This document shows positions 1 to 8,915 of a stretch of DNA of 64,000 nt, one piece after another. The notes beneath the pieces are model-generated. The model was not told where the DNA came from. It did not search any database and saw only the letters and a list, made by a program, of their open reading frames with translations. The stretch lies in the NCBI GenBank assembly GCA_021850365.1, contig JAJZMH010000021.1, forward strand, positions 7,785-71,784, given 5' to 3'. This stretch comes from a bacterium. Lineage in GTDB: Bacteria; Patescibacteriota; Saccharimonadia; Saccharimonadales; UBA4665. The position numbers and the translations under genes are program-made. Every line of letters starts with the position of its first letter. The stretch's first letter is position 1.

Positions 1-776
1 TAAATCAACACAAAGTTTCATTAAATAAACAAAACTTAATTCCAATTGTTTTGTTTGAGCCTAATTTTTTTAATTTAAACTTAATATCAAACGAACAAAA
101 AAGAAACTTTATAGATAATTTAATAACACAAATCAACCCATCCTATACAAAAACCTTAAATCAATATAAAAAAACCTTAGTTCAAAGAAATAAATTATTG
201 AAAACACCTGTAAAGAACACAGAATTATTTCCTTGGAACATCAAAATTAGTCAATTAGCTCAAGAAATTATCAACAACAGAACAAACACAATAAAAGACA
301 TTAATAAGTTGCTCTCTAAAAAATATACTATTTTTTCAAAAAACTTAGATAAAATAACTCTAAGATACAACTCTCCCATAGATCTAAACAATTATTCTTT
401 AAACCTTTTAGAAAAATTTGAAATAAACATTCACAAAGAAAAAACAATAGGATATACCCTTTTTGGACCCCATAAAGATGATATTGATTTTTTATTTAAC
501 AACCAAATAACCAAAAACTTTCTTTCGCAAGGAGAAAATAGATCAATTGTACTTAGCCTGAAACTAGTTGAGAAAGATATAATAGAAGATAAAACTAATA
601 AGTTACCTATATTTCTGTTTGATGATGTTTTTAGCGAACTTGATGGTAATAGAAGAAGCACAATATTAAAACAAATTAACTCTAATCAAACATTTATAAC
701 AACAACAGAAGTAGATTTAGTGGTTAATAACCTAAATAATGAGTTTAATATTATACCTCTAAACAAAAATCTATAA
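1..776 (+). CDS. recF: DNA replication/repair protein RecF, C-terminal part (5' end lies left of the window)
   Basis: The frame of ORF 51..776 stays open back to base 3, so the TTG at 51 is not the real start. It has the SMC-type signature 'LSQGENRSIVLSLKL' and the Walker B-like 'IFLFDDVFSELD' typical of RecF. Confidence 0.8.
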   Translation, partial: NQHKVSLNKQNLIPIVLFEPNFFNLNLISNEQKRNFIDNLITQINPSYTKTLNQYKKTLVQRNKLLKTPVKNTELFPWNIKISQLAQEIINNRTNTIKDINKLLSKKYTIFSKNLDKITLRYNSPIDLNNYSLNLLEKFEINIHKEKTIGYTLFGPHKDDIDFLFNNQITKNFLSQGENRSIVLSLKLVEKDIIEDKTNKLPIFLFDDVFSELDGNRRSTILKQINSNQTFITTTEVDLVVNNLNNEFNIIPLNKNL

Positions 777-2654
777 TATTGTTCCCTCATTTGGGGCAGT
801 TATGTCTACTTGAGACTGAACTACGGGTTTAGGTGTAGTTGTAATTAAGTCGGTTTCAGTTGGACTAGCAACAACTTGAATGTGAACATGATTTTGACCT
901 GCAAAAAATAAACCTTGTCCTACCGGGAACTGACTAAGTCGTTTCTTTTCTTCAGAAGTTAATTTAAAAACATCTGCTAAAACATCAACAGCTGAGGTGG
1001 ATTGCTTTAATAAAATTTGCATTGATGCATTTGCTACGATAGCTCTACCCATTCTTGAGCCCATAAAGTCTTCTACGTCTTGAGTAATTGTAGTTATACC
1101 AAGATTATACTTCCTTGCCCTTTTAGCTAAACTAAATAAAAAATTAGCCGAATCCTCATATTTCATTAACTGCCATGCTTCATCTACGATTAATATTCTT
1201 CTTTTTTGATCAACTTTAGTTTTGTTCCAAATATAATTTAAAACTATATACATTGCTACAGGTCTTAATTCATCTTCTAGGTCTCTAATATTAAAAACTG
1301 CCAACGGATTATTGATGTTTATATTAGATTGTTGGGAAAAAATACCAGAAAAAGTACCTGTAGTATATTTTCTTAATCTTTGAGCTAATTGCGGGCCGTT
1401 ACCACCCATATGTAGTAAAACATCATACAAATCTGAAATCGTAGGCGGAGGACTTCGATGTGTTAAAGGATCATTTGTAATTCCAGCTTTTGCATATGTT
1501 TCAATTAAGGCAGAATCTAAGTCCGCTTCTTCAGAAGGAGCTAAAACTGGAGCCACAACTGCCTGTTGACCTAAACCAGCAATTTCAGCTTGGGCTCCAC
1601 CCATCATTAGTCTTAACAGCCCATGAAGAGTAATTAAATTACTACGAAGCGCGTTGTCTGCCTCTTCAGAGTCTATGACCTCAGGTAGATCAAATGGATT
1701 AATTCTTGTTGAAGAATTAAGGCTTAACCTAACATAAGCTCCACCTACTGCTTCGCACATTTTTTGGTATTCATTTTCGGGATCAATAATAAATATTTCA
1801 ACCCCAAACATCATACTTCTAAGTGCTTCAAGTTTTACGGTAAATGATTTCCCCGCTCCGGACTTAGCAAATACAACAGAATTTCCGTTCTCAAGCGAAA
1901 ACCTATCAAAAATTACCAACCCAGAATTATGCATGTTTATGCCGTATAAAATTCCATTATCTTGACTAAGATCTGCGCTTGTAAAAGGGAAACTTGTGCT
2001 AAGCGCACCGGTGCTCATGTTTCTTCTTATTTGAAGCATATCTGACATTTGAGGAACGGTGCTATTAAAAGATTGCTCTTGTTGAGAAGTTGCTGGTTTA
2101 GAATAAACTAACATTTGACCTAACATTGACTCAACTTTATGACCAACAAACTCTAACTCTTCAGCACTTTGAGCATATACCGTGAAATATAAGCCAAATC
2201 TGAAAAACTTCTCTTCACCTACCTGAAGCTTATCTCTCATTTCTTCAGCATCTAATATGGCTGCTTGTTTTGCTGGATCTCTTACCCGGCCCTTTTCCGA
2301 ATCTAATTGAATTCCTGCCTCTAGTCTAGAAACTTTTTTCCTAAGATTTTCCAAAACAACCTGACTTTCTACAGGATAGACGTAAATACTAACATCTAAA
2401 ACTTCATCTAAATTAACTAAAGGGCTCATCCAGCCAGTAAAAACATTTCTGGGATAACCGTAAACATAATAAGTCCGAGCAAACCTTGTTCCAATTGTAA
2501 AATACGTGCTGAAATACTCTATTGAACTTGGAGCAATAAAATCTCTTAGAGCAACAATACCTTTTTTAAAAATGTTTTGAGCTTCTTGCTCTTCTTTCAT
2601 TTTTTGAATTTGAGCCGCTGCAACAGGGTCTATAGTAGGATTAAGTTTAGCCAT
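771..2654 (-). CDS. virB4: VirB4/TrbE/PrgJ-family type IV secretion ATPase (C-terminal 627-aa piece of a split homologue)
   Basis: Walker A 'AKSGAGKSFT' and Walker B 'RILIVDEAWQL' are present. The N-terminal 'DFIAPSS...YGYPRNVFTGWM' segment is typical of VirB4-type ATPases. The ATG directly abuts the stop of the upstream ORF in the same frame. Confidence 0.8.
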   Translation of the reverse strand: MAKLNPTIDPVAAAQIQKMKEEQEAQNIFKKGIVALRDFIAPSSIEYFSTYFTIGTRFARTYYVYGYPRNVFTGWMSPLVNLDEVLDVSIYVYPVESQVVLENLRKKVSRLEAGIQLDSEKGRVRDPAKQAAILDAEEMRDKLQVGEEKFFRFGLYFTVYAQSAEELEFVGHKVESMLGQMLVYSKPATSQQEQSFNSTVPQMSDMLQIRRNMSTGALSTSFPFTSADLSQDNGILYGINMHNSGLVIFDRFSLENGNSVVFAKSGAGKSFTVKLEALRSMMFGVEIFIIDPENEYQKMCEAVGGAYVRLSLNSSTRINPFDLPEVIDSEEADNALRSNLITLHGLLRLMMGGAQAEIAGLGQQAVVAPVLAPSEEADLDSALIETYAKAGITNDPLTHRSPPPTISDLYDVLLHMGGNGPQLAQRLRKYTTGTFSGIFSQQSNININNPLAVFNIRDLEDELRPVAMYIVLNYIWNKTKVDQKRRILIVDEAWQLMKYEDSANFLFSLAKRARKYNLGITTITQDVEDFMGSRMGRAIVANASMQILLKQSTSAVDVLADVFKLTSEEKKRLSQFPVGQGLFFAGQNHVHIQVVASPTETDLITTTPKPVVQSQVDITAPNEGTIL

Positions 2655-3506
2655 TTAATTATTTAATCCTCCTTGAAGATGTTCTTGGGGCATAACCCCC
2701 TCTCCTTTCATAACCATATCTGTATTTAAATCATTAAAGTTTTTTAACTGTTGCCTTGTTGCGGTATCAGGATTATACACGTCGTAATATAATTCGATAA
2801 GCTCTTGTGTGTCCAAAGGGAGTCCCTGAACACCACAATCTAGTAATCCACCCAAAACAGCCTGAACTCTATTTCTAAGTTCGGTTTTTGCTCTCTCCAA
2901 TCCTTCTTCATTAATAACAACATGTTCTTCTTTAGAAGTAAACATACCAAGCAGACCCTTTAATAAATTTTTACTATCAGCTAAAGCTTTTTGAACATCT
3001 TCTGTGGGAAAATAAGGTATGACTATATAAAACTTTTTATCCATAATGTTTGTTCTAAGGCTTAAATCATCAATGTAATTAATGTAGTCTTCCATTAATA
3101 AAGCAAGTAACATGTTGTCATGTTCTGTTCTAATTTTGTCTAATTTCTTAATATAACCTTCGAGGTCTATTTTTTGAGTTTTAATAAATATCTGAATTGG
3201 AAAATAGAGAGTGTTTAAAAATCCCTGGTAAGCATATTCAATTGCTTCTTGTTCTTGTTGACTCATTAAATCAAAATTAATACTTTTAACCATAACAATT
3301 GCCCTAAAAGAGCCATCGTTCATAATAACAATACCGTCTCTAACCTCAGCGATTAGTAGAGTATTTTGACTACTGTTTGGATTTGTTTTTTGGGAAGATA
3401 CTGTTTTCTTGGTAGGTTGTGCCGACTGTAGGGTATTAGAAGTTATTCCTTGTGGAGGAACGTTTGAATTTGTTGTTTGGTTTTTAGAACTATTGTTTTG
3501 ATCCAT
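2655..3506 (-). CDS. VirB4 N-terminal-module-like protein (283 aa), T4SS-associated
   Basis: The first ~50 aa are Ser/Asn/Gln-rich. They are followed by 'DGIVIMNDGSFRAIVMVKSINFDLMSQQEQEAIEYAYQGFLNTL' and a C-terminal 'ELIELYYDVYNPD'. From memory these resemble the extreme N-terminus of Gram-positive VirB4 proteins (Tn916 Orf16/TcpF type). The gene is sandwiched in the operon; the similarity has not been checked with an HMM. Confidence 0.45.
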   Translation of the reverse strand: MDQNNSSKNQTTNSNVPPQGITSNTLQSAQPTKKTVSSQKTNPNSSQNTLLIAEVRDGIVIMNDGSFRAIVMVKSINFDLMSQQEQEAIEYAYQGFLNTLYFPIQIFIKTQKIDLEGYIKKLDKIRTEHDNMLLALLMEDYINYIDDLSLRTNIMDKKFYIVIPYFPTEDVQKALADSKNLLKGLLGMFTSKEEHVVINEEGLERAKTELRNRVQAVLGGLLDCGVQGLPLDTQELIELYYDVYNPDTATRQQLKNFNDLNTDMVMKGEGVMPQEHLQGGLNN

Positions 3507-3513
3507 CCCACCA

Positions 3514-4425
3514 TTAATGAAGTTTTATTGATACTTCGCTTTCTTCTTTATTACTTATTTTATTTGCTTCGTGAGAAATTACAGTCACACTATAGTCATT
3601 ATTCCCTGACAAATTAAGTATAGCAGGATTTACATTTTTAGTTGGTGTGTTTTCTTCTTTTTGAGCTACTGGTTTAGGTGCTATGAAAGGTTTATTTTCT
3701 TGAACTATTTTCATGTCTGTTGCTGACTCTATTTTTGTCTTTGGAATTGTTTTTTGCTCATGAGGTTGACTATTTTCCCTTATTTTCTCTAATTTAGCTA
3801 AGATTTTTTCCCGGTGCTCTTTTTCGTTAACAGTGATAAGATCACCCATTTTTTGAGCTAATGGGTTTTGATCAGTGTTTAAAATGTCATTTTCGTTTGT
3901 AGAGTATTCGTCTTTGTCGGTGTTCACCGGAACAGCCATCAATAATCGATCATCCTGTGGAGAGGGATTAATTGCGGTTGGTTGGTTTATGAATGAATTT
4001 TGTTTAACGACCCATCCCCTAGTATCTAGGGTGTTTGCAAGAGCTTGGAGTCTTGATTTAACTTGATCTTGGTTGAGGTTATTTGTTTTTATTTCCTCAA
4101 TTTTTTTAGGGACAGTAATTGTTACCAAGTTTTTAGTTCCCGACTGAGTCCAAATTCTTTTTCTAGGAACTAATAAAAAGCGAATTTTAGCTAGAACCCA
4201 AACTTCCATAGGCTGATCTTTTCCCAAGGGATAGGCGAGTGTACTAAAAAAAAGAACAACTGGTACTGTTATTATATCTAAGAACCACCCATGAACAGAA
4301 ATAAAAATATAGGACACATAAACAAAGAACAAAGCTATTAATAAATAAACGAACTGCCTAAAACTAAAAAGCCAAATTAACTTATCTTCAGCCTCAATAT
4401 CTTGAATTACTTTGTATGTTGCCAT
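3514..4425 (-). CDS. PrgI/VirB3-like T4SS membrane protein with ~200-aa C-terminal extension
   Basis: The N-terminus 'DIEAEDKLIWLFSFRQFVYLLIALFF' plus two hydrophobic helices and 'PMEVWVLAKIRFLLVPRKRIW' matches my recollection of the PrgI/VirB3 pattern. It is the first gene of the minus-strand operon, with a GGTGGG SD for the next gene. Confidence 0.5.
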   Translation of the reverse strand: MATYKVIQDIEAEDKLIWLFSFRQFVYLLIALFFVYVSYIFISVHGWFLDIITVPVVLFFSTLAYPLGKDQPMEVWVLAKIRFLLVPRKRIWTQSGTKNLVTITVPKKIEEIKTNNLNQDQVKSRLQALANTLDTRGWVVKQNSFINQPTAINPSPQDDRLLMAVPVNTDKDEYSTNENDILNTDQNPLAQKMGDLITVNEKEHREKILAKLEKIRENSQPHEQKTIPKTKIESATDMKIVQENKPFIAPKPVAQKEENTPTKNVNPAILNLSGNNDYSVTVISHEANKISNKEESEVSIKLH

Positions 4426-4469
4426 ATCTTTAAATAATTATATCAAACCATAAGCAGATATAAAGGATA

Positions 4470-4952
4470 TTGTTCTTTAAGTTCAAAAACGATAAAATAT
4501 TCTTAGTGAAAACATTGAAATATCAAAGAATATTGTTAAAAAGTTTTATCGTAATCCTTTTTAGTTTTAGTGTGTTGTATTTTTCTAATAGTTATATATT
4601 AAGCCAAAACCCCTCAACCATAAACAACAAACAACTTACACTAACAGCTGCTTGTGGTGGTGGAACCGGGTATTCTTCTGTTACAACTAGCATTGATTTT
4701 GGGTGTAGTGGCAAGGGTAACCCAATACTAGATTTAACCTTTGCTATAATTCGATTTTTAGCAGCAGGGGTTGGCGTAGTTATAATAGCTTCTACAATTT
4801 ATGCCGGCATTCAATATATAATATCAACTGGTGATCCTCAAAAAACAAATGTAGCTATTGGAAGAATCAGGAGTAATATAATTGCCTTAATCCTATTTAT
4901 TTTTACATACGTAATAATTAATTACTTAGTTCCAGGAGGACTTATTCATTAA
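4470..4952 (+). CDS. VirB2/TrbC-like T4SS pilin paralogue 1
   Basis: It has a hydrophobic signal/anchor, then a variable segment with two Cys ('AACGGG...FGCSG'). This is followed by TM1, the loop 'YAGIQYIISTGDPQKTNVAIGRIRSN' and TM2. The start is uncertain: TTG at 4470, or possibly GTG at 4506. Confidence 0.55.
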   Translation: MFFKFKNDKIFLVKTLKYQRILLKSFIVILFSFSVLYFSNSYILSQNPSTINNKQLTLTAACGGGTGYSSVTTSIDFGCSGKGNPILDLTFAIIRFLAAGVGVVIIASTIYAGIQYIISTGDPQKTNVAIGRIRSNIIALILFIFTYVIINYLVPGGLIH

Positions 4953-4953
4953 A

Positions 4954-5325
4954 ATGTTAAGTATATCAAATACACAATTATCACTGACTGCTTGTACGAG
5001 TACTGGTTCTGGTTCTAGTTCTGGTTTTTTTTCTTTTCCAACATGGTATGAGTATTTATGCTCATCATCTAACGGAAACCCTCAAATAACTAACATAAAT
5101 GATATTTGGTTAATTGTTTTAGCAATAATTAACATCTTACTTAGAGTAGCTGCTATGATAGCCGTTTTTTATATTATCTATGGTGGAATTAAATTTATGA
5201 CTTCCCAAGGAAATCCAGAAGAAATAAATAAGGCAAAAAGTACTGTTCTAAGCGCAGTCATTGGCCTGATTATTTGTGTTATAGCTGATGTCTCCATAAG
5301 TTTTATAGCAGGACAAATACAATGA
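4954..5325 (+). CDS. VirB2/TrbC-like T4SS pilin paralogue 2
   Basis: The Ser/Gly-rich variable segment has two Cys. The core is 'IYGGIKFMTSQGNPEEINKAKSTVLSAVIGL' between two hydrophobic helices. It starts 1 nt after paralogue 1. Confidence 0.6.
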   Translation: MLSISNTQLSLTACTSTGSGSSSGFFSFPTWYEYLCSSSNGNPQITNINDIWLIVLAIINILLRVAAMIAVFYIIYGGIKFMTSQGNPEEINKAKSTVLSAVIGLIICVIADVSISFIAGQIQ

Positions 5326-5648
5326 AACTAAAAACTATTTATTTTCCAATAATTTTCAGTGTAGCTTCGGTAACGGTCAACAACTATACATATTCTACGG
5401 GTTTATCAACCACCTCTGCTGGTTCTCAAGAACTACAGAGTATTTTACAAATTGTTTTTGGGATAATTGGCTCAATAGCCGTTTTAATTATTTTAATAGC
5501 AGGATTTAAGTTTATTTCCTCAAGCGGAAATCCTGAAAGTATTGCAAAAGCAAGAGAAACTATAATATATGCCATTATAGGTCTAGTGGTCGCTATGTTA
5601 GCAGAAGTAATTGTTTCCTTTGTTTTGTTTAGTGTTGGAGGTAGTTAA
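5322..5648 (+). CDS. VirB2/TrbC-like T4SS pilin paralogue 3 (no Cys pair)
   Basis: It overlaps paralogue 2 by ATGA. The core is 'IAGFKFISSSGNPESIAKARETIIYAIIGL' between two hydrophobic helices. Confidence 0.6.
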   Translation: MKLKTIYFPIIFSVASVTVNNYTYSTGLSTTSAGSQELQSILQIVFGIIGSIAVLIILIAGFKFISSSGNPESIAKARETIIYAIIGLVVAMLAEVIVSFVLFSVGGS

Positions 5649-5649
5649 T

Positions 5650-6030
5650 ATGAAAAAAAAGAACATATTAGCTTTACTGTGCAGTTTATTTTTAGTTTTT
5701 GGGTTATTTGTGTCTTCTAATGTTAACGCTGCAAATGTTTTAAGCACGCTATGCAATAGCGCTACGGCTCAAAACTCAACCGTTTGTCAAGATACGGGTA
5801 AGGGTCAAACTGCTTCCAATCCTTTTTCTAACACGATCAAGACCATAGTAAATGTTTTTTCAATCGTTTTGGGAATTGCCGCAATCATTATAATCCTTAT
5901 AAGCTCGCTTAGAATGATCGTAGGTGGAGGTGATCCTCAAACAATAAGTTCTTCTCGAAATGCAATACTATATGCCCTAATTGGCTTGATTGTTGCCATA
6001 TCGGCTGGAGTTATAGCTCACATTATTTAA
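5650..6030 (+). CDS. VirB2/TrbC-like T4SS pilin paralogue 4
   Basis: I chose the ATG at 5650 ('MKKKNILALL', a signal peptide ending 'NVNA') because GGAGG lies 9 nt upstream and it avoids overlap with paralogue 3. It has a Cys pair 'LCNS...VCQD' and the core 'LRMIVGGGDPQTISSSRNAILYALIGL'. Confidence 0.6.
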   Translation: MKKKNILALLCSLFLVFGLFVSSNVNAANVLSTLCNSATAQNSTVCQDTGKGQTASNPFSNTIKTIVNVFSIVLGIAAIIIILISSLRMIVGGGDPQTISSSRNAILYALIGLIVAISAGVIAHII

Positions 6031-6041
6031 AGGAGGTAAAA

Positions 6042-6443
6042 ATGAAACAAATAGCAGTTAAATTTTTTTATAGTATTTGTTTATTATTAATAGCCCAGAT
6101 TGTAATATACGGCAGTTTTTCAGTAGTTAGTGCAACTTCACCCAGTCCTAGTGGAGCTGCAACACAGGCCTGTAATGGCTTAAAACAGTTTAATGGAACC
6201 AATGCGACATGCACATCTTCATCCAGTAGTTCTATTATGAGCGTCGTAAGGTATTTAATTGAAGTGTTATCTTATGTTATTGGGGTTGTATCTGTTATTG
6301 TAATAATTTATGCTGGGTTTAGATATGTTGTTTCAGGAGGAGACAGCAATAGTGTTAATAGTGCCAAAAACACTCTTCTTTATGCTGCGGTTGGATTAGC
6401 TATTGCGGTAATAGTTCAAGTTATTGCCCGTATTGTTGTATGA
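6042..6443 (+). CDS. VirB2/TrbC-like T4SS pilin paralogue 5
   Basis: There is an AGGAGG SD and a signal peptide. The Cys pair is 'ACNG...NATCTSSSSSS' and the core is 'IIYAGFRYVVSGGDSNSVNSAKNTLLYAAVGL'. Confidence 0.65.
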   Translation: MKQIAVKFFYSICLLLIAQIVIYGSFSVVSATSPSPSGAATQACNGLKQFNGTNATCTSSSSSSIMSVVRYLIEVLSYVIGVVSVIVIIYAGFRYVVSGGDSNSVNSAKNTLLYAAVGLAIAVIVQVIARIVV

Positions 6444-6477
6444 AACAGATAACTATTTAATTTAAAGCATAAAGCTG

Positions 6478-6505
6478 TTGAAATAAAAACTTACTTTAGT
6501 ATAAT
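6478..6505 (+). promoter_or_regulatory. Sigma70-like promoter for pilin paralogue 6 (TTGAAA-16 nt-TATAAT)
   Basis: TTGAAA lies at 6478-6483 and TATAAT at 6500-6505, in the only sizeable gap within the pilin array. Confidence 0.5.
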
Positions 6506-6518
6506 TATATTTGAATCA

Positions 6519-6977
6519 ATGAAAGGAAAACAAATGATTAAAAAAATTAAAACGTATATGACTTCTTTATTGTTAATTATAAGTATGAGTCTCCCAATAA
6601 CTTCATCGGCGGTAGTTTTTGCGGCGCCTACTTGCACTGGAAATACCAATTTAAACAACAACGCAATAACCAGCAGTATTAATAGTGGAATAAATGACGC
6701 TACTGGACCAACTGGCCAGGGCGGAAACTGTAACCTAGGCCAAGGAATTGGTGCGATTGCTAGTACTGTAATTAATTTATTTTCATTGGTCGTTGGTGTA
6801 GTGTCTGTAATATTTATAATTTATGCCGGTTTTAGATATGTTACCTCAGGTGGTTCATCTGAAAATGTATCCGGAGCTAAAAACACTCTTATATACGCAA
6901 TTGTTGGACTTGTAGTTGTAGCTATTTCGCAGCTTATAGTTCATTATGTTCTAAATAGCGCTTCCTCAGTGGGATAA
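6519..6977 (+). CDS. VirB2/TrbC-like T4SS pilin paralogue 6
   Basis: It has a signal peptide ('...SSAVVFA'), a Cys pair 'PTCTG...GNCNLG' and the core 'IIYAGFRYVTSGGSSENVSGAKNTLIYAIVGL'. The ATG at 6534, preceded by AAAGGAA, is an alternative start. Confidence 0.65.
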   Translation: MKGKQMIKKIKTYMTSLLLIISMSLPITSSAVVFAAPTCTGNTNLNNNAITSSINSGINDATGPTGQGGNCNLGQGIGAIASTVINLFSLVVGVVSVIFIIYAGFRYVTSGGSSENVSGAKNTLIYAIVGLVVVAISQLIVHYVLNSASSVG

Positions 6978-7003
6978 TAATTAAAGACCTGAGTTTTTCT
7001 TTC

Positions 7004-8251
7004 TTATTTTAAGAAACCAACATAACTTAGTATTAAATAGAAATTGAAAATACTGGACAACAGAAACAAACTCTTCATTCCAGAAGACAGTTTTTTGTTA
7101 TATTTTTTATATAATTGCAAGAATATAACAAATATTATAGGTAAGAAATCTAGACTATATCTGTAACCAAATTGATTTGCGCCGTCACCATAATATACTA
7201 AAAGCATCAAGAGGCTTATCAGTGAACTAAGTAATAACAGTCTATGTTCTCTCGTATAAGAAGACCATTTTCTAGTAAACAAATAGAGTAAAAAGGGGGA
7301 AGTAAAAAATATCCCCATACCTAAATTGTTATTGATAATGTATGGAAACTTTAAGCTCCAAGAAGAAGCAGATGCCAATACTGTACTTGGTCCTCGTAAT
7401 AAAAAATTATATAAATTAGTAGGAATATGACTTAACGAAAGAAGGCCCATATTTCTTGCTAACAACGATGAAGTAGAGATTAGCTGATATGAGTTCCCAT
7501 TATTTAAAGGATTTCCAAATCGTAGATAGTTGTACGCACCCAGTAATAAAACCGCTATAAGTCCAAAAATTCCAATCTTAAATAAATTGATTAATTTTTG
7601 TTTTGAACTTATTTTTTCTAATAAAATTTGGGCAATAAAAAATAAAATTATTACAGAAGCAGGAATTCTGGTAAGAAACAACATTCCGCAATATGCTCCA
7701 AGTAATAACCACCTTTTCTTATTAAAATACTCATAAAGGGCAAGAAATAAGATTAAGGTTGAAACTATCTGAGCAAATAACCAACCACTGGAAACTGTAT
7801 TAATCCCCGCATAAACTGTTGCTAGTAAAAACGCGAAAGACAGTATAATACTATCTCTTTTACTATATCTGAACTTAACGGCTAATTTATAGATTATATA
7901 AAAAGTAATTAGAACCAATATCCATTTCATGTAACCCTGATAGAAAAATATATGAAATAAATTAAAGAAAGCAACGAAGGGCATTAAAATAATTGCCGGG
8001 AAAAACCCATCATCCCAATACTGTTTCCCATGATAAATAACAGGATCTTGACCAATTCCACCGATTGAACTTAAAAAATAGGTGTGACCGTGAACGAAAC
8101 TGTTTGCCAACATTGAAAATTGTTGACTACCTTCACCAACAAAACCAGCTGCCAACAAAAAAATTAACAAGAATCCAAACACCAACATATAAGGCATTTC
8201 GTTTACGTCAGACCAAGATATATAAAACAGTTTTTTTAGATCCTCTAACAT
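7004..8251 (-). CDS. GT-C-fold polytopic membrane glycosyltransferase (ArnT/PMT/GT87-like)
   Basis: The 415-aa protein has about 10 or more hydrophobic helices. The first-loop motif 'DPVIYHGKQYWDDGFFPAIILMPF' resembles lipid-linked-sugar glycosyltransferases. The call rests on pattern only. Confidence 0.4.
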   Translation of the reverse strand: MLEDLKKLFYISWSDVNEMPYMLVFGFLLIFLLAAGFVGEGSQQFSMLANSFVHGHTYFLSSIGGIGQDPVIYHGKQYWDDGFFPAIILMPFVAFFNLFHIFFYQGYMKWILVLITFYIIYKLAVKFRYSKRDSIILSFAFLLATVYAGINTVSSGWLFAQIVSTLILFLALYEYFNKKRWLLLGAYCGMLFLTRIPASVIILFFIAQILLEKISSKQKLINLFKIGIFGLIAVLLLGAYNYLRFGNPLNNGNSYQLISTSSLLARNMGLLSLSHIPTNLYNFLLRGPSTVLASASSWSLKFPYIINNNLGMGIFFTSPFLLYLFTRKWSSYTREHRLLLLSSLISLLMLLVYYGDGANQFGYRYSLDFLPIIFVIFLQLYKKYNKKLSSGMKSLFLLSSIFNFYLILSYVGFLK

Positions 8252-8268: not shown

Positions 8269-8751
8269 TTAGAGAACCTGAATTTTTTTAATGGATTCCT
8301 GCTTCATTTTATTAAACGAAACAGTTAAAACTCCATCTTTTAAAACAGCTTCAATTTCATCCTCTTTTACTGGAACAGGTAATGCGATTGTTCTAGAAAA
8401 TTCACCCCAGTAACACTCCTGTAAGAAGTAATTCTCAACACCCTCTTCGTTCCCTGCACTCAGGGTTCCTTTAATGGTAAGTTGATTGTCTGAAATGCTA
8501 ACATCTAGGTCACTACGATTAACCCCCGCAGTTCGTGCTTTTACAACCAATTTGTCTGACGTTTCATAGACGTCAACGGCTAGTTGCCCTGGAACAGCCT
8601 CATCTTCATCCCATTCTTCTTCAACCACAGTAGGTTGCATTCCACTGTCTGTGCTACCTAGGTCACTATCTATTTCATCGTCTCCCAAAAAAGCAGCAGT
8701 CAACTCATCTTCTTCTAATAGCAAATTATCATCACGACTTTTTCGTGCCAT
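8269..8751 (-). CDS. Hsp20/alpha-crystallin small heat-shock protein with acidic N-terminal region
   Basis: The alpha-crystallin domain is 'AVDVYETSDKLVVKARTAGVNRSDLDVSISDNQLTIKG...LPVPVKEDEIEAVLKDGVLTVSF'. I preferred the ATG at 8751 (GGAGGG SD upstream) over the TTG at 8763. Confidence 0.85.
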   Translation of the reverse strand: MARKSRDDNLLLEEDELTAAFLGDDEIDSDLGSTDSGMQPTVVEEEWDEDEAVPGQLAVDVYETSDKLVVKARTAGVNRSDLDVSISDNQLTIKGTLSAGNEEGVENYFLQECYWGEFSRTIALPVPVKEDEIEAVLKDGVLTVSFNKMKQESIKKIQVL

Positions 8752-8915
8752 GTTACCCTCCAAAAATTAAATAAATATCTTTACAATTTTTATATTAACC
8801 ATAGTATAACCTAAATTGTATCTAAATAACAAACATCTTATCTTTATTTACAACACAATAATCACAACACTTCAAGTAAGTGAATAATTTAACTTAAAAT
8901 GTTAATATATATGTT

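What the first reader, a model, noticed from the sequence alone, without database searches (positions are those of the whole stretch)
4470..6977. Six-member pilin paralogue array with a conserved helical-hairpin core and a hypervariable, Cys-bracketed exposed segment
Seen: all six proteins share a C-terminal core. It consists of TM1, then [YI][AG]G[FI][KR][YF]-x2-S-x-G-[DN][PS]-x5-A[KR]-x2-[IL]-x-[YS]A-x2-GL, then TM2. The 30-60 residues between the signal peptide and TM1 cannot be aligned between paralogues and are rich in Ser/Thr/Asn/Gly. In five of the six this segment contains exactly two Cys; paralogue 3 has none. Genes 1-5 are packed tightly: gaps of 1 nt, an ATGA overlap, 1 nt, and 11 nt with an SD. 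Gene 6 has its own TTGAAA-16-TATAAT promoter. Inference: the disulfide-bracketed variable loop is the surface-exposed part. The array may provide antigenic or receptor-specificity diversity, or a major pilin plus minor pilins.
Basis: partly seen in the sequence, partly recalled or inferred. Interest (0 to 1): 0.6.

Follow-up and report, generated by a model that had tools for sequence, protein, structure and literature searches.

The report
Six-gene T4SS pilin array, Saccharibacteria

Summary
Six tandem ORFs (4470/4506-6977, + strand) all match Pfam PF18895 (T4SS_pilin). They lie divergent from PrgI/VirB3-like, TrsD-like and VirB4 genes in a 653-kb Saccharimonadales (CPR) genome. The reported gene gaps, the promoter before gene 6 and the Cys counts are all as described.

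This is a known kind. The six-pilin array of Southlakia epibionticum is published and each gene is Tn-seq-essential (PMC10633639). Arrays of 2-11 pilins across Patescibacteria are catalogued (PMC12102498) and reviewed (PMC12857230).

What I add:
- The layout (five packed genes, then a 50-90 nt gap before gene 6) recurs in 13 complete arrays.
- Positions 1, 2 and 3 are each monophyletic across genera. Genes 5 and 6 share a homogenised core within this genus.
- The N-terminal segment evolves about 2.7 times faster than the core but under purifying selection (omega 0.09 against 0.04).
- That segment carries paralogue-specific conserved motifs, for example FPTWYxYL in gene 2.
- The Cys pair is nearly invariant (115/117 gene-6 relatives, 79/84 gene-2 relatives), and the genome encodes VKOR and a DsbA-like protein.
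- Gene 6 has the most constrained core.

"Hypervariable/antigenic" is not supported. One major pilin (gene 6) plus five specialised pilins is favoured.

The parts
4470..4952 (+). Pilin paralogue g1. It is the most divergent, with a long stem branch. The likely start is GTG 4506 (148 aa), which gives a signal-peptide-like N-terminus MKTLKYQRILLKSFIVILFSFSVLYF. Two Cys (C62, C79 in the 160-aa numbering). Conserved C-terminal motif LNYL(V/I)PGG.
   Evidence: PF18895 at 25.7 bits and 27.7 bits. The 148-aa form is the public gene call. The g1 clade has 100/100 support. Orthologue alignment.
4954..5325 (+). Pilin paralogue g2 (123 aa). No signal peptide. The uncharged or acidic 47-aa N-tail carries the conserved motif C...F.FPTWY(E/K)YL...C.P. 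GGAGG lies 14 nt before the ATG. A TAG at 4927-4929 closes the frame upstream.
   Evidence: PF18895 at 40.2 bits. In 84 relatives W31 and L35 are invariant and C14, P29, Y32, Y34 and P43 are at least 90% conserved. 79/84 have exactly two N-segment Cys. AF2 hairpin 49-83 and 88-121. Clade support 100/99.
5322..5648 (+). Pilin paralogue g3 (108 aa), the shortest. ATGA overlap with g2. No Cys here or in the same-genus relatives. Four of the 13 compared orthologues carry a Cys pair (a fifth has four Cys). No clear signal peptide in most orthologues.
   Evidence: PF18895 at 58.5 bits and TrbC/VirB2 PF04956 at E 5e-5. Clade support 96/85. Cys counts. Alignment.
5650..6030 (+). Pilin paralogue g4 (126 aa). 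Signal-peptide-like N-terminus ending VNA|AN. The Cys pair C35/C46 is conserved in all 13 orthologues.
   Evidence: PF18895 at 43.8 bits. The 126-aa form is the public gene call. Alignment and Cys counts. The N-segment profile from other genera recognises it at E 9e-6.
6042..6443 (+). Pilin paralogue g5 (133 aa). AGGAGG SD. Signal-peptide-like N-terminus. Cys pair C44/C57 in the motif QAC.GL...C. Its core is 54% identical to g6 and clusters with this genus's own g6.
   Evidence: PF18895 at 30.9 bits. Identity matrix. The genus g5+g6 clade has 100/97 support. The N-segment is still recognised by the g5 profile from other genera at E 6e-5.
6478..6505 (+). Sigma-70-like promoter TTGAAA-16-TATAAT in the g5-g6 gap.
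   Evidence: 11/12 match, the best in 4300-7100. A -10-like TATAAT/TATTAT at the same place in 4 of 5 same-genus genomes. A 50-90 nt gap before the last gene in all 13 complete arrays and in S. epibionticum (83 nt).
6519..6977 (+). Pilin paralogue g6, the candidate major pilin. The likely start is ATG 6534 (147 aa), preceded by AAAGGA. Signal-peptide-like N-terminus ending VFA|AP. Cys pair C34/C66. It has the most conserved core of the six.
   Evidence: PF18895 at 42.3 bits. The 147-aa form is the public gene call. Core identity is 92% (window vs G004) and 98% (G001 vs G003), with omega 0.02-0.03. Mean core identity across the 13 compared genomes is 62%, against 37-51% for the others. 115/117 relatives have exactly two N-segment Cys and none in the core. 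AF2 model.
3514..4425 (-). PrgI/VirB3-like membrane protein, first gene of the divergent T4SS operon.
   Evidence: PF12666 PrgI at E 2e-8, 35 bits against a cut-off of 27.
2655..3506 (-). TrsD-like protein, which corresponds to the N-terminal part of longer VirB4 proteins.
   Evidence: NCBIfam TrsD at E 5.5e-8, plus matches to the N-terminal regions of VirB4 models. The same separate gene exists in S. epibionticum (SEML1_0009).
771..2654 (-). VirB4-family ATPase (627 aa), the motor of the T4SS.
   Evidence: NCBIfam CD1110-family VirB4 at 347 bits against a cut-off of 325. P-loop_TraG at E 9e-28. 80-88% identical proteins in named Saccharibacteria MAGs.
7004..8251 (-). Polytopic putative glycosyltransferase, convergent with g6. 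It is a possible lineage-specific accessory and is not shown to belong to the system.
   Evidence: NCBIfam LA_3751/3752 putative glycosyltransferase at E 6.5e-12, below cut-off. Present in only 8 of 41 related genomes, and in all 8 it lies within about 3.5 kb of the g6 end of the array.

Best explanation
The six genes encode VirB2-type (Pfam T4SS_pilin) subunits of the chromosomal, monoderm-type type IV secretion system of a Saccharimonadales bacterium.

Each protein is a membrane helical hairpin: TM1, a conserved short loop (SGGD/NP...AK), then TM2. It is preceded by a 29-47-residue Ser/Thr/Asn/Gly-rich N-terminal segment, which in five of the six is probably held by one disulfide.

Shown here or in the literature:
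- family membership
- linkage to VirB3/TrsD/VirB4
- the hairpin fold
- the order-wide six-gene layout
- orthology by position
- purifying selection
- Cys-pair conservation
- presence of VKOR and a DsbA-like protein
- essentiality of each of the six genes in the cultured relative Southlakia epibionticum (literature)

Inferred mechanism:
- The pilins insert with the N-segment outside and the conserved loop on the cytoplasmic side.
- The VirB4/VirB3/VirB6 machine extracts them from the membrane and stacks them into a tube that crosses the epibiont envelope towards the host cell.
- Gene 6 supplies the bulk (major) subunit. It has its own promoter, a canonical signal peptide, the most constrained core and the shortest branches.
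- Genes 1-5, a tightly coupled operon with paralogue-specific ectodomains, supply low-copy, position-specific subunits (base, adaptor or tip). The six would therefore be non-redundant parts of one heteromeric structure, not alternative surface variants.
- What passes through the tube (host-derived nutrients, effectors or signals) is unknown.
For: Family and context:
- PF18895 hits for all six; PrgI, TrsD-like and VirB4 next door.
- Hairpin in two AF2 models.

Conserved layout:
- 39/41 genomes of the order have matches, nearly all with 5-9 copies. 147/151 genomes of the class have matches, mostly 5-9 copies.
- 13 complete arrays share the same gene sizes, order and a gap before the last gene.
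- The S. epibionticum array SEML1_0014-0019 has the same layout and is followed by hsp20 as here. All six genes are scored GD/ES/ES in Tn-seq (text).

Orthology by position:
- g1 100/100, g2 100/99 and g3 96/85 are each monophyletic. g4 is nearly so (3 label changes). Labels need 13 changes overall, against 53 when shuffled.
- N-segment profiles built from other genera pick out the genus's g4 and g5, and 2 of 3 g6.

Constraint:
- G001 vs G003: omega 0.09 (N-segment) and 0.04 (core). Window vs G004: dN 0.40 against 0.14.
- g2 N-motif with invariant W31 and L35 in 84 relatives.
- Cys pair in 115/117 and 79/84 relatives. VKOR at E 3e-43 and a DsbA-like protein at E 1e-20 in the same genome.

g6 as the major subunit:
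- Best promoter match and conserved -10 element.
- Highest core conservation and near-zero terminal branches in several genomes.
Against: - No pilus or tube made of these proteins has been seen in any Patescibacterium. The filaments purified from the cultured relative M. amalyticus were Ig-fold Pam pilins.
- Foldseek and PDB sequence searches gave no significant match to solved VirB2/TraA pilins. A bare hairpin is not discriminating.
- The relationship to classical VirB2/TrbC is only sub-threshold. The best is g3, at 23.8 bits against a cut-off of 27.9.
'Major' for g6 therefore rests on sequence signals only.
- No consensus promoter was found upstream of g1.
- Tn-seq essentiality of g1-g5 in S. 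epibionticum could partly reflect polar effects, and these are small genes with 11-16 insertion sites.
- dS is saturated for the pair nearest the window, and whole-segment omega cannot exclude a few positively selected sites.
- g2 and g3 lack signal peptides, so their N-out topology is assumed.
Confidence: 0.7

Rival explanations
1. Antigenic or host-specificity variation array. The paralogues would be alternative surface variants, as proposed for tandem VirB2 paralogues of Bartonella and Anaplasma. They would let the epibiont evade host defences or attach to different host strains.
For: - Paralogues within the array are only 22-54% identical in the core, and their N-segments cannot be aligned.
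- The N-segment evolves about 2.7 times faster than the core.
- The window's and G004's g6 N-segment has diverged from other g6 orthologues; the window's scores E 0.35 against the g6 N-profile.
- The literature raises this idea.
Against: - Copy number, order and gene sizes are fixed across the order. Positions 1-3 are monophyletic across genera, so the duplications are ancient and each copy has been retained.
- N-segments are under purifying selection, with omega 0.09.
- They carry paralogue-specific near-invariant motifs and Cys pairs.
- All six are intact, with their own SD or start codon. Translational coupling of g1-g5 implies co-expression, not alternative expression.
- Each is individually essential in S. 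epibionticum.
Confidence: 0.1
2. Membrane-resident channel components, not filament subunits. The hairpins would stay in the cytoplasmic membrane or cell wall as parts or regulators of the VirB3/VirB4/VirB6 translocon, like the small pilin-like proteins of monoderm and mycoplasma conjugation systems. No extended pilus would be made.
For: - Monoderm T4SSs generally make no pilus.
- All six give sub-threshold hits to the mycoplasma ICE 'pilin-like conjugal transfer protein' model NF045849, from E 6e-10 to 2e-4.
- A pilin domain is fused directly to a VirB6-like polytopic protein in the second locus of this genome. This suggests that pilin-VirB6 contact occurs in the membrane.
- The filaments seen on a cultured relative are Pam pili, not these proteins.
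Against: - Conserved, Cys-bracketed, Ser/Thr-rich ectodomains and Sec-type signal peptides on four of the six suggest an exposed function.
- Six distinct, individually retained subunits, one of them with its own strong promoter, look more like building blocks than regulators.
- Nothing tested here distinguishes a short envelope-spanning tube from a membrane complex.
Confidence: 0.17
3. Redundant duplicates kept for dosage, or decaying copies of one functional pilin.
For: They form a tandem array of one family. The g5 and g6 cores are 54% identical and cluster together within the genus.
Against: - All six reading frames are intact here and in 12 other complete arrays.
- Omega is 0.02-0.16 in the cores.
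- Orthology by position predates the genera compared.
- This is a 653-kb reduced genome, where redundant genes are unlikely to persist.
- Each gene is essential in S. epibionticum.
Confidence: 0.03

Closest known systems
The six-gene VirB2-like pilin array of Candidatus Southlakia epibionticum ML1 (SEML1_0014-0019; Wang et al. 2023, PMC10633639; reviewed in PMC12857230)
   Same: - Six tandem PF18895 genes on one strand.
- An 83-nt gap before the last gene (75-90 nt here).
- A 4-nt overlap between the 2nd and 3rd genes.
- hsp20 downstream on the opposite strand, and tRNA-Ser further on.
- The same VirB4, TrsD-like and PrgI genes on the other strand.
   Different: - In S. epibionticum three genes lie between PrgI and the array (SEML1_0011-0013), two of them about 1000-aa VirB6-like/T4SS proteins. 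Here PrgI abuts the array (44-80 nt).
- I could not find a homologue of the large protein in this genome (the assembly is 91% complete).
- Here a putative GT-C glycosyltransferase is inserted between gene 6 and hsp20.
VirB2 arrays of Patescibacteria catalogued by Quinonero-Coronel et al. 2025 (PMC12102498): 441 arrays of 2-11 pilins in 383 assemblies
   Same: - Same Pfam family and the same association with an MPF-FATA-like VirB4.
- Same low within-array identity (about 25% mean; 22-54% here).
- The class (Saccharimonadia) is one of the two in which such arrays are most abundant.
   Different: That study counted arrays and suggested antigenic variation or host-range versatility. It does not discuss orthology by position, Cys pairs, signal peptides or selection. 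My comparisons argue against the variation reading for this order.
Classical conjugative pilins VirB2/TrbC/TraA (Pfam PF04956) of diderm T4SSs
   Same: - A small protein with a two-helix hydrophobic hairpin and a short conserved loop.
- Sec-type leader on four of the six.
- Encoded beside VirB3 and VirB4.
- Weak profile similarity: g3 at E 5e-5, g4 at 7e-4, g5 at 9e-3. Many relatives carry both Pfam hits.
   Different: - All scores are below the PF04956 cut-off.
- The host is a monoderm.
- There are six co-encoded paralogues instead of one, with longer Cys-bracketed N-terminal ectodomains.
- No VirB5, no cyclisation protease and no relaxase were seen nearby.
- Polymerisation is not demonstrated.
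Tandem VirB2 paralogues of Bartonella and Anaplasma phagocytophilum effector T4SSs (as cited in PMC12102498)
   Same: Several divergent VirB2-like genes in tandem in a host-associated bacterium with a reduced genome.
   Different: Those arrays are interpreted as antigenic variation. Here the copies are ancient orthologues by position under purifying selection, and they are co-transcribed or translationally coupled.
Mbov_0395-family pilin-like conjugal transfer proteins of mycoplasma ICEs (NCBIfam NF045849)
   Same: An 80-aa two-TM hairpin of monoderm T4SSs. All six proteins give sub-threshold hits, from E 6e-10 to 2e-4.
   Different: All scores are below the 40-bit cut-off. The mycoplasma proteins lack the N-terminal ectodomain and occur singly.

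Membership tests
Pfam PF18895 T4SS_pilin | Profile score at or above the gathering cut-off (26.6 bits) | tested here: met
   g2 40.2, g3 58.5, g4 43.8, g5 30.9 and g6 42.3 bits. g1 scores 25.7 by hmmscan but 27.7 in the six-frame search. g1 orthologues form a clade within the family tree.
Pfam PF18895 T4SS_pilin | Two hydrophobic helices joined by a short conserved loop | tested here: met
   AF2 gives g6 helices 68-104 and 112-146 and g2 helices 49-83 and 88-121 with pLDDT 81-94.
T4SS pilin in the functional sense (VirB2-like) | Encoded with the VirB4 ATPase and VirB3-like protein of a T4SS | tested here: met
   PrgI (PF12666), TrsD-like and CD1110-family VirB4 lie immediately divergent from the array. 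The same linkage holds in 80 related loci.
T4SS pilin in the functional sense (VirB2-like) | Polymerises into an extracellular pilus or conduit | not testable with these tools
   No structure or imaging exists for any PF18895 protein. The PDB sequence search was empty. The reviews call a pilus a 'possibility'.
Pfam PF04956 TrbC/VirB2 | Profile score at or above the gathering cut-off (27.9 bits) | tested here: not met
   The best is g3 at 23.8 bits (E 5e-5), then g4 at 20.2 and g5 at 16.7. There is no hit for g1, g2 or g6. These are distant relatives, not members by this criterion.
Antigenic-variation pilin arrays | Lineage-specific turnover of copies, so that copies are closer within a genome than between genomes | tested here: not met
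   g1, g2 and g3 are each monophyletic across 13 genomes (100/100, 100/99, 96/85). Only the g5/g6 cores cluster within lineages.
Antigenic-variation pilin arrays | Diversifying selection on the exposed segment | tested here: not met
   Whole-segment omega is 0.09 (N-segment) against 0.04 (core) for G001 vs G003. Site-wise tests were not possible with so few close genomes.
Antigenic-variation pilin arrays | Silent or alternatively expressed copies | tested here: inconclusive
   All copies have start codons and SD or coupling signals, which argues against silent cassettes.
Major-plus-minor pilin system | One subunit with separate, strong expression signals and the highest constraint | tested here: met
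   g6 has its own TTGAAA-16-TATAAT promoter. Its core identity is 62% across the 13 compared genomes, against 37-51% for the others, with omega 0.02-0.03. Abundance itself was not measured.
Major-plus-minor pilin system | The other subunits are conserved and non-redundant | tested here: met
   Orthology by position. Individual Tn-seq essentiality in S. epibionticum comes from the literature, with the caveat of possible polar effects.
Disulfide-stabilised exposed loop | A conserved Cys pair outside the membrane, plus an oxidising machinery in the genome | tested here: met
   Exactly two N-segment Cys in 115/117 g6 relatives and 79/84 g2 relatives, and none in the g6 core. VKOR (146 bits) and Thioredoxin_4/DsbA-like (72.7 bits) are present in the genome. 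The bond itself was not observed.

The most novel reading that the evidence does not exclude
The six pilins are obligate, position-specific building blocks of a single heteropolymeric T4SS tube. It would consist of a g6 shaft with g1-g5 as base, adaptor or tip subunits, each presenting its own disulfide-locked ectodomain, possibly glycosylated in some lineages. This would be the first heteromeric VirB2-type pilus and the first T4SS pilus of a monoderm, serving as the essential conduit between the epibiont and its host. The g5/g6 pattern (shared core, distinct N-segments) would show that the ectodomain, not the hairpin, defines subunit identity.
Probability: 0.3. Interest if true: 0.75.

Novelty: new member of a known kind. 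Interest (0 to 1): 0.3.

Why it matters
The T4SS of Saccharibacteria is essential for growth on the host, and its role is described as completely unknown (PMC11665869). The pilin array is its most unusual feature, because monoderm T4SSs normally have no pilin.

This window adds nothing categorically new, because the array is published. The comparative results do sharpen the open question:
- They argue that the six pilins are ancient, individually retained parts of one structure, not a variation device.
- They nominate gene 6 as the shaft subunit.
- They flag gene 2 (no leader, invariant FPTWYxYL motif) and the Cys pairs as concrete targets for mutagenesis and for structural work in the genetically tractable species.

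Tried and rejected
1. Foldseek of both AF2 models against the PDB gave only generic helical hairpins, with no match at E <= 0.001. The method is uninformative for this fold.
2. A profile search of the g6 family against PDB sequences found nothing relevant.
4. dN/dS for the window's nearest relative (G004): dS is saturated (1.2-2.5 or undefined). Only dN ratios are usable there, and the less diverged pair G001/G003 was used for omega.
5. Lipoprotein reading of 'LTAC' in g1 and g2: rejected. In g2 the preceding stretch is only about 12 residues with no charged n-region. In g1 the Cys is more than 20 residues beyond the hydrophobic stretch. In orthologues the residues before the Cys do not keep a lipobox.
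6. A longer g2 made by an upstream start or by fusion to g1: rejected. An in-frame TAG lies 8 codons upstream and a GGAGG lies 14 nt before the ATG. Public gene calls and 84 relatives have the same short form. Two of 13 orthologues (L045, L073) do have leader-like N-extensions, so loss of the leader may be secondary.
7. The GT-C gene as an obligate partner of the array: rejected as general. It is present in only 8 of 41 relatives. It is kept as a lineage-specific lead.
8. Pam pili (PMC13278184) as the identity of these genes: rejected. They are a different fold (Ig-like, donor-strand exchange).

Full report
**What is there**

The window comes from a 653-kb, 91%-complete genome. Its VirB4 is 80-88% identical to proteins of MAGs named Candidatus Saccharibacteria or Saccharimonadales. 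On the + strand between 4470 and 6977 lie six small ORFs. [quoted passage not shown] Five are above the curated cut-off. Gene 1 is 0.9 bits below it by hmmscan and above it in the six-frame genome search.

Divergently transcribed from the array are three T4SS genes:
- a PrgI/VirB3-like protein (3514-4425)
- a TrsD-like protein that corresponds to the N-terminal part of long VirB4s (2655-3506)
- a CD1110-family VirB4 ATPase (771-2654; 347 bits against a cut-off of 325)

The details hold when read from the DNA:
- The gaps are 1 nt, an ATGA overlap, 1 nt, and 11 nt containing AGGAGG.
- Gene 6 follows after 75 nt. This gap contains TTGAAA (6478), 16 nt, then TATAAT (6500). It is the best promoter-like site in the region.
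- Exactly two Cys lie in the pre-TM1 segment of genes 1, 2, 4, 5 and 6, and none in gene 3.

Corrections:
- The written consensus fits only genes 3 and 5 exactly.
- Public gene calls start gene 1 at GTG 4506 and gene 6 at ATG 6534.
- Genes 2 and 3 have no signal peptide.

AlphaFold2 with deep alignments gives the predicted hairpin. Gene 6 has helices 68-104 and 112-146, and gene 2 has helices 49-83 and 88-121 with pLDDT 81-94. The N-segments are modelled with low confidence.

**It is a known thing**

- Wang et al. [quoted passage not shown]
- Their Table S1 lists SEML1_0014-0019, six + strand genes of 399, 558, 312, 381, 384 and 417 nt. There is an 83-nt gap before the last gene, and hsp20 follows on the opposite strand. 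Each gene is scored GD/ES/ES. The same layout and the same downstream hsp20 (8269-8763) are seen here.
- Quinonero-Coronel et al. 2025 (PMC12102498) count 441 arrays of 2-11 VirB2-like genes in 383 Patescibacteria assemblies. The mean within-array identity is 25%. They suggest antigenic variation or adaptation to different hosts.
- The function of the system is still called 'completely unknown'.

**What the comparisons add**

*Distribution.* PF18895 genes are present in 39 of 41 genomes of the order, nearly all of them with 5-9 copies. They are present in 147 of 151 near-complete genomes of the class.

*Layout.* Among 80 VirB4 loci I recovered 13 complete arrays. All have six genes with the same size pattern, and the last gene is set apart by 50-90 nt.

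*Tree of the hairpin core* (80 sequences, IQ-TREE with a mixture model):
- Position 1 (100/100), position 2 (100/99) and position 3 (96/85) each form a single clade. Position 4 nearly does.
- The position labels need 13 changes, against 53 when shuffled.
- Positions 5 and 6 are intermixed. In the window's genus, g5 and g6 form a starred clade (100/97), and their cores are 54% identical.
- Yet profiles built from the N-segments of other genera still recognise this genus's g4 and g5 by position, at E 1e-5 to 5e-3 against at least 0.02 for the other paralogues.
- I read this as homogenisation (conversion or re-duplication) of the g5 and g6 cores, with the ectodomains kept distinct. This is an inference from small samples.

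*How variable is the 'variable' segment?*
- Across the 13 compared genomes, mean pairwise identity is 21-36% in the N-segment and 37-62% in the core.
- For the least saturated pair in the genus (G001 vs G003), dN is 0.086 against 0.032 and omega is 0.09 against 0.04.
- For the window against its closest relative G004, dN is 0.40 against 0.14, with saturated dS.
- The segment is therefore about 2.7 times less constrained but clearly under purifying selection.
- It also carries paralogue-specific motifs. In 84 relatives of gene 2, W31 and L35 are invariant, and C14, P29, Y32, Y34 and P43 are at least 90% conserved (consensus FA..C..GG.FLGFPTWYEYL...C.P).

*The Cys pair.*
- It is present in 115 of 117 gene-6 relatives, with no Cys at all in the core, and in 79 of 84 gene-2 relatives.
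- All 13 orthologues of g2 and g6 have exactly two Cys. Twelve of 13 do for g4 and 11 of 13 for g5; two of the three exceptions have four Cys (L024 g4, L020 g5) and one has none (L024 g5).
- Gene 3 lacks the pair in this genus, but four of the 13 compared orthologues carry a pair and a fifth (L084) has four Cys.
- The genome encodes a VKOR homologue (146 bits) and a DsbA-like thioredoxin (72.7 bits), so extracytoplasmic disulfides are plausible.

*Gene 6 stands out.*
- It has the most conserved core: 92% identity to G004, 98% between G001 and G003, and omega 0.02-0.03.
- It has near-zero terminal branches in several genomes and a canonical leader.
- It has its own promoter, and the -10 element is kept in 4 of 5 genomes of the genus.

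**Interpretation**

The fixed number and order, the orthology by position, the purifying selection, the translational coupling of g1-g5, and the individual essentiality in S. epibionticum all fit six non-redundant subunits of one structure. Gene 6 would be the bulk subunit. These features do not fit an antigenic-variation array.

The outward orientation of the N-segment and polymerisation by VirB4/VirB3/VirB6 are inferred from classical VirB2/TraA pili. They were not tested.

No VirB2-type filament has been seen in any Patescibacterium. The thin filaments of the cultured relative M. amalyticus turned out to be Ig-fold Pam pilins. A short envelope-spanning tube, or even a purely membrane-resident role, therefore remains possible.

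**Limits**

- Structure searches were uninformative.
- No signal-peptide predictor was available, so leaders are judged by eye from n/h/c regions and AXA-like sites.
- Tn-seq essentiality in an operon may include polar effects.
- The 13 arrays come from loci whose VirB4 is at least 80% identical to the query. Orthology by position is therefore shown for this part of Saccharimonadales, not for the whole class.

**Context noticed**

The same genome carries a second compact T4SS-like operon on another contig. Its gene order is:
- pilin (115 aa)
- pilin::VirB6-like fusion (445 aa)
- PrgI
- a 217-aa protein
- a second VirB4-like ATPase (571 aa)
- a CHAP hydrolase

The pilin plus fusion pair recurs in relatives, seen as open frames of 434-448 aa. 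The large VirB6-like protein that separates PrgI from the array in other genera was not found in this genome.

Both pilin loci are flanked by polytopic putative glycosyltransferases. The one in the window occurs in only 8 of 41 relatives, but always within about 3.5 kb of the gene-6 end of the array.

**Verdict**

The 'hypervariable/antigenic' reading is not supported, and the 'major plus minor pilins' reading is favoured. This is a further member of a published kind of locus, of modest interest.

Noticed in passing
G000 contig C12, locus L106:4964-9936 (- strand); not in the window: A second, compact T4SS-like operon in the same genome. Its gene order is pilin (115 aa), a pilin domain fused to a VirB6/TrbL-like polytopic protein (445 aa), PrgI-like (159 aa), a 217-aa protein, a second VirB4-like ATPase (571 aa) and a CHAP peptidoglycan hydrolase (165 aa). 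The pilin plus 434-448-aa fusion pair recurs in several relatives.
   Followed up: partly
window 7004-8251 (-) and L106:10098-11189 (-): Both pilin loci are flanked by polytopic putative glycosyltransferases. The window's gene matches the LA_3751/3752-like model below cut-off. The second locus has a PIG-V-type Mannosyl_trans2 match at 30.6 bits against a cut-off of 22.4. The window's gene occurs in only 8 of 41 relatives, but in all 8 it lies within about 3.5 kb of the gene-6 end of the array. It may glycosylate the Ser/Thr/Asn-rich pilin ectodomains, but nothing here tests that.
   Followed up: partly
window 3514-4469, compared with L086:2721-7027: In this genus PrgI abuts the pilin array. 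In other Saccharimonadales, and in S. epibionticum (SEML1_0011-0013), large VirB6-like/T4SS proteins of about 900-1000 aa lie between them. The 877-aa protein of L086 has no detectable homologue in this 91%-complete genome. The main module therefore looks stripped of its own channel protein.
   Followed up: partly
window 6042-6977 (g5, g6): The cores of g5 and g6 cluster together within this genus (100/97), while their N-segments keep their position-specific identity. This suggests partial gene conversion or re-duplication restricted to the hairpin.
   Followed up: partly
window 4426-4505: No consensus sigma-70-like promoter on the + strand was found upstream of gene 1. The only good site in the divergent gap points the other way, towards prgI (TTTATA-16-TATAAT with TG, 4464->4437). 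How the g1-g5 operon is transcribed is unexplained.
   Followed up: no
window 2652-2657: The TrsD-like ORF ends and the VirB4 ORF starts with no nucleotide between them (stop codon directly followed by ATG). S. epibionticum has the same two-gene arrangement (SEML1_0009/0008). This split is therefore the normal state of the system, not a broken gene.
   Followed up: partly
L045 and L073, second pilin gene: Two of the 13 gene-2 orthologues have N-terminal extensions that look like signal peptides ending just before the first conserved Cys. All the others, including the window, start about 12 residues before that Cys. Either the leader was lost secondarily, or the longer ORFs are over-extended calls.
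   Followed up: no
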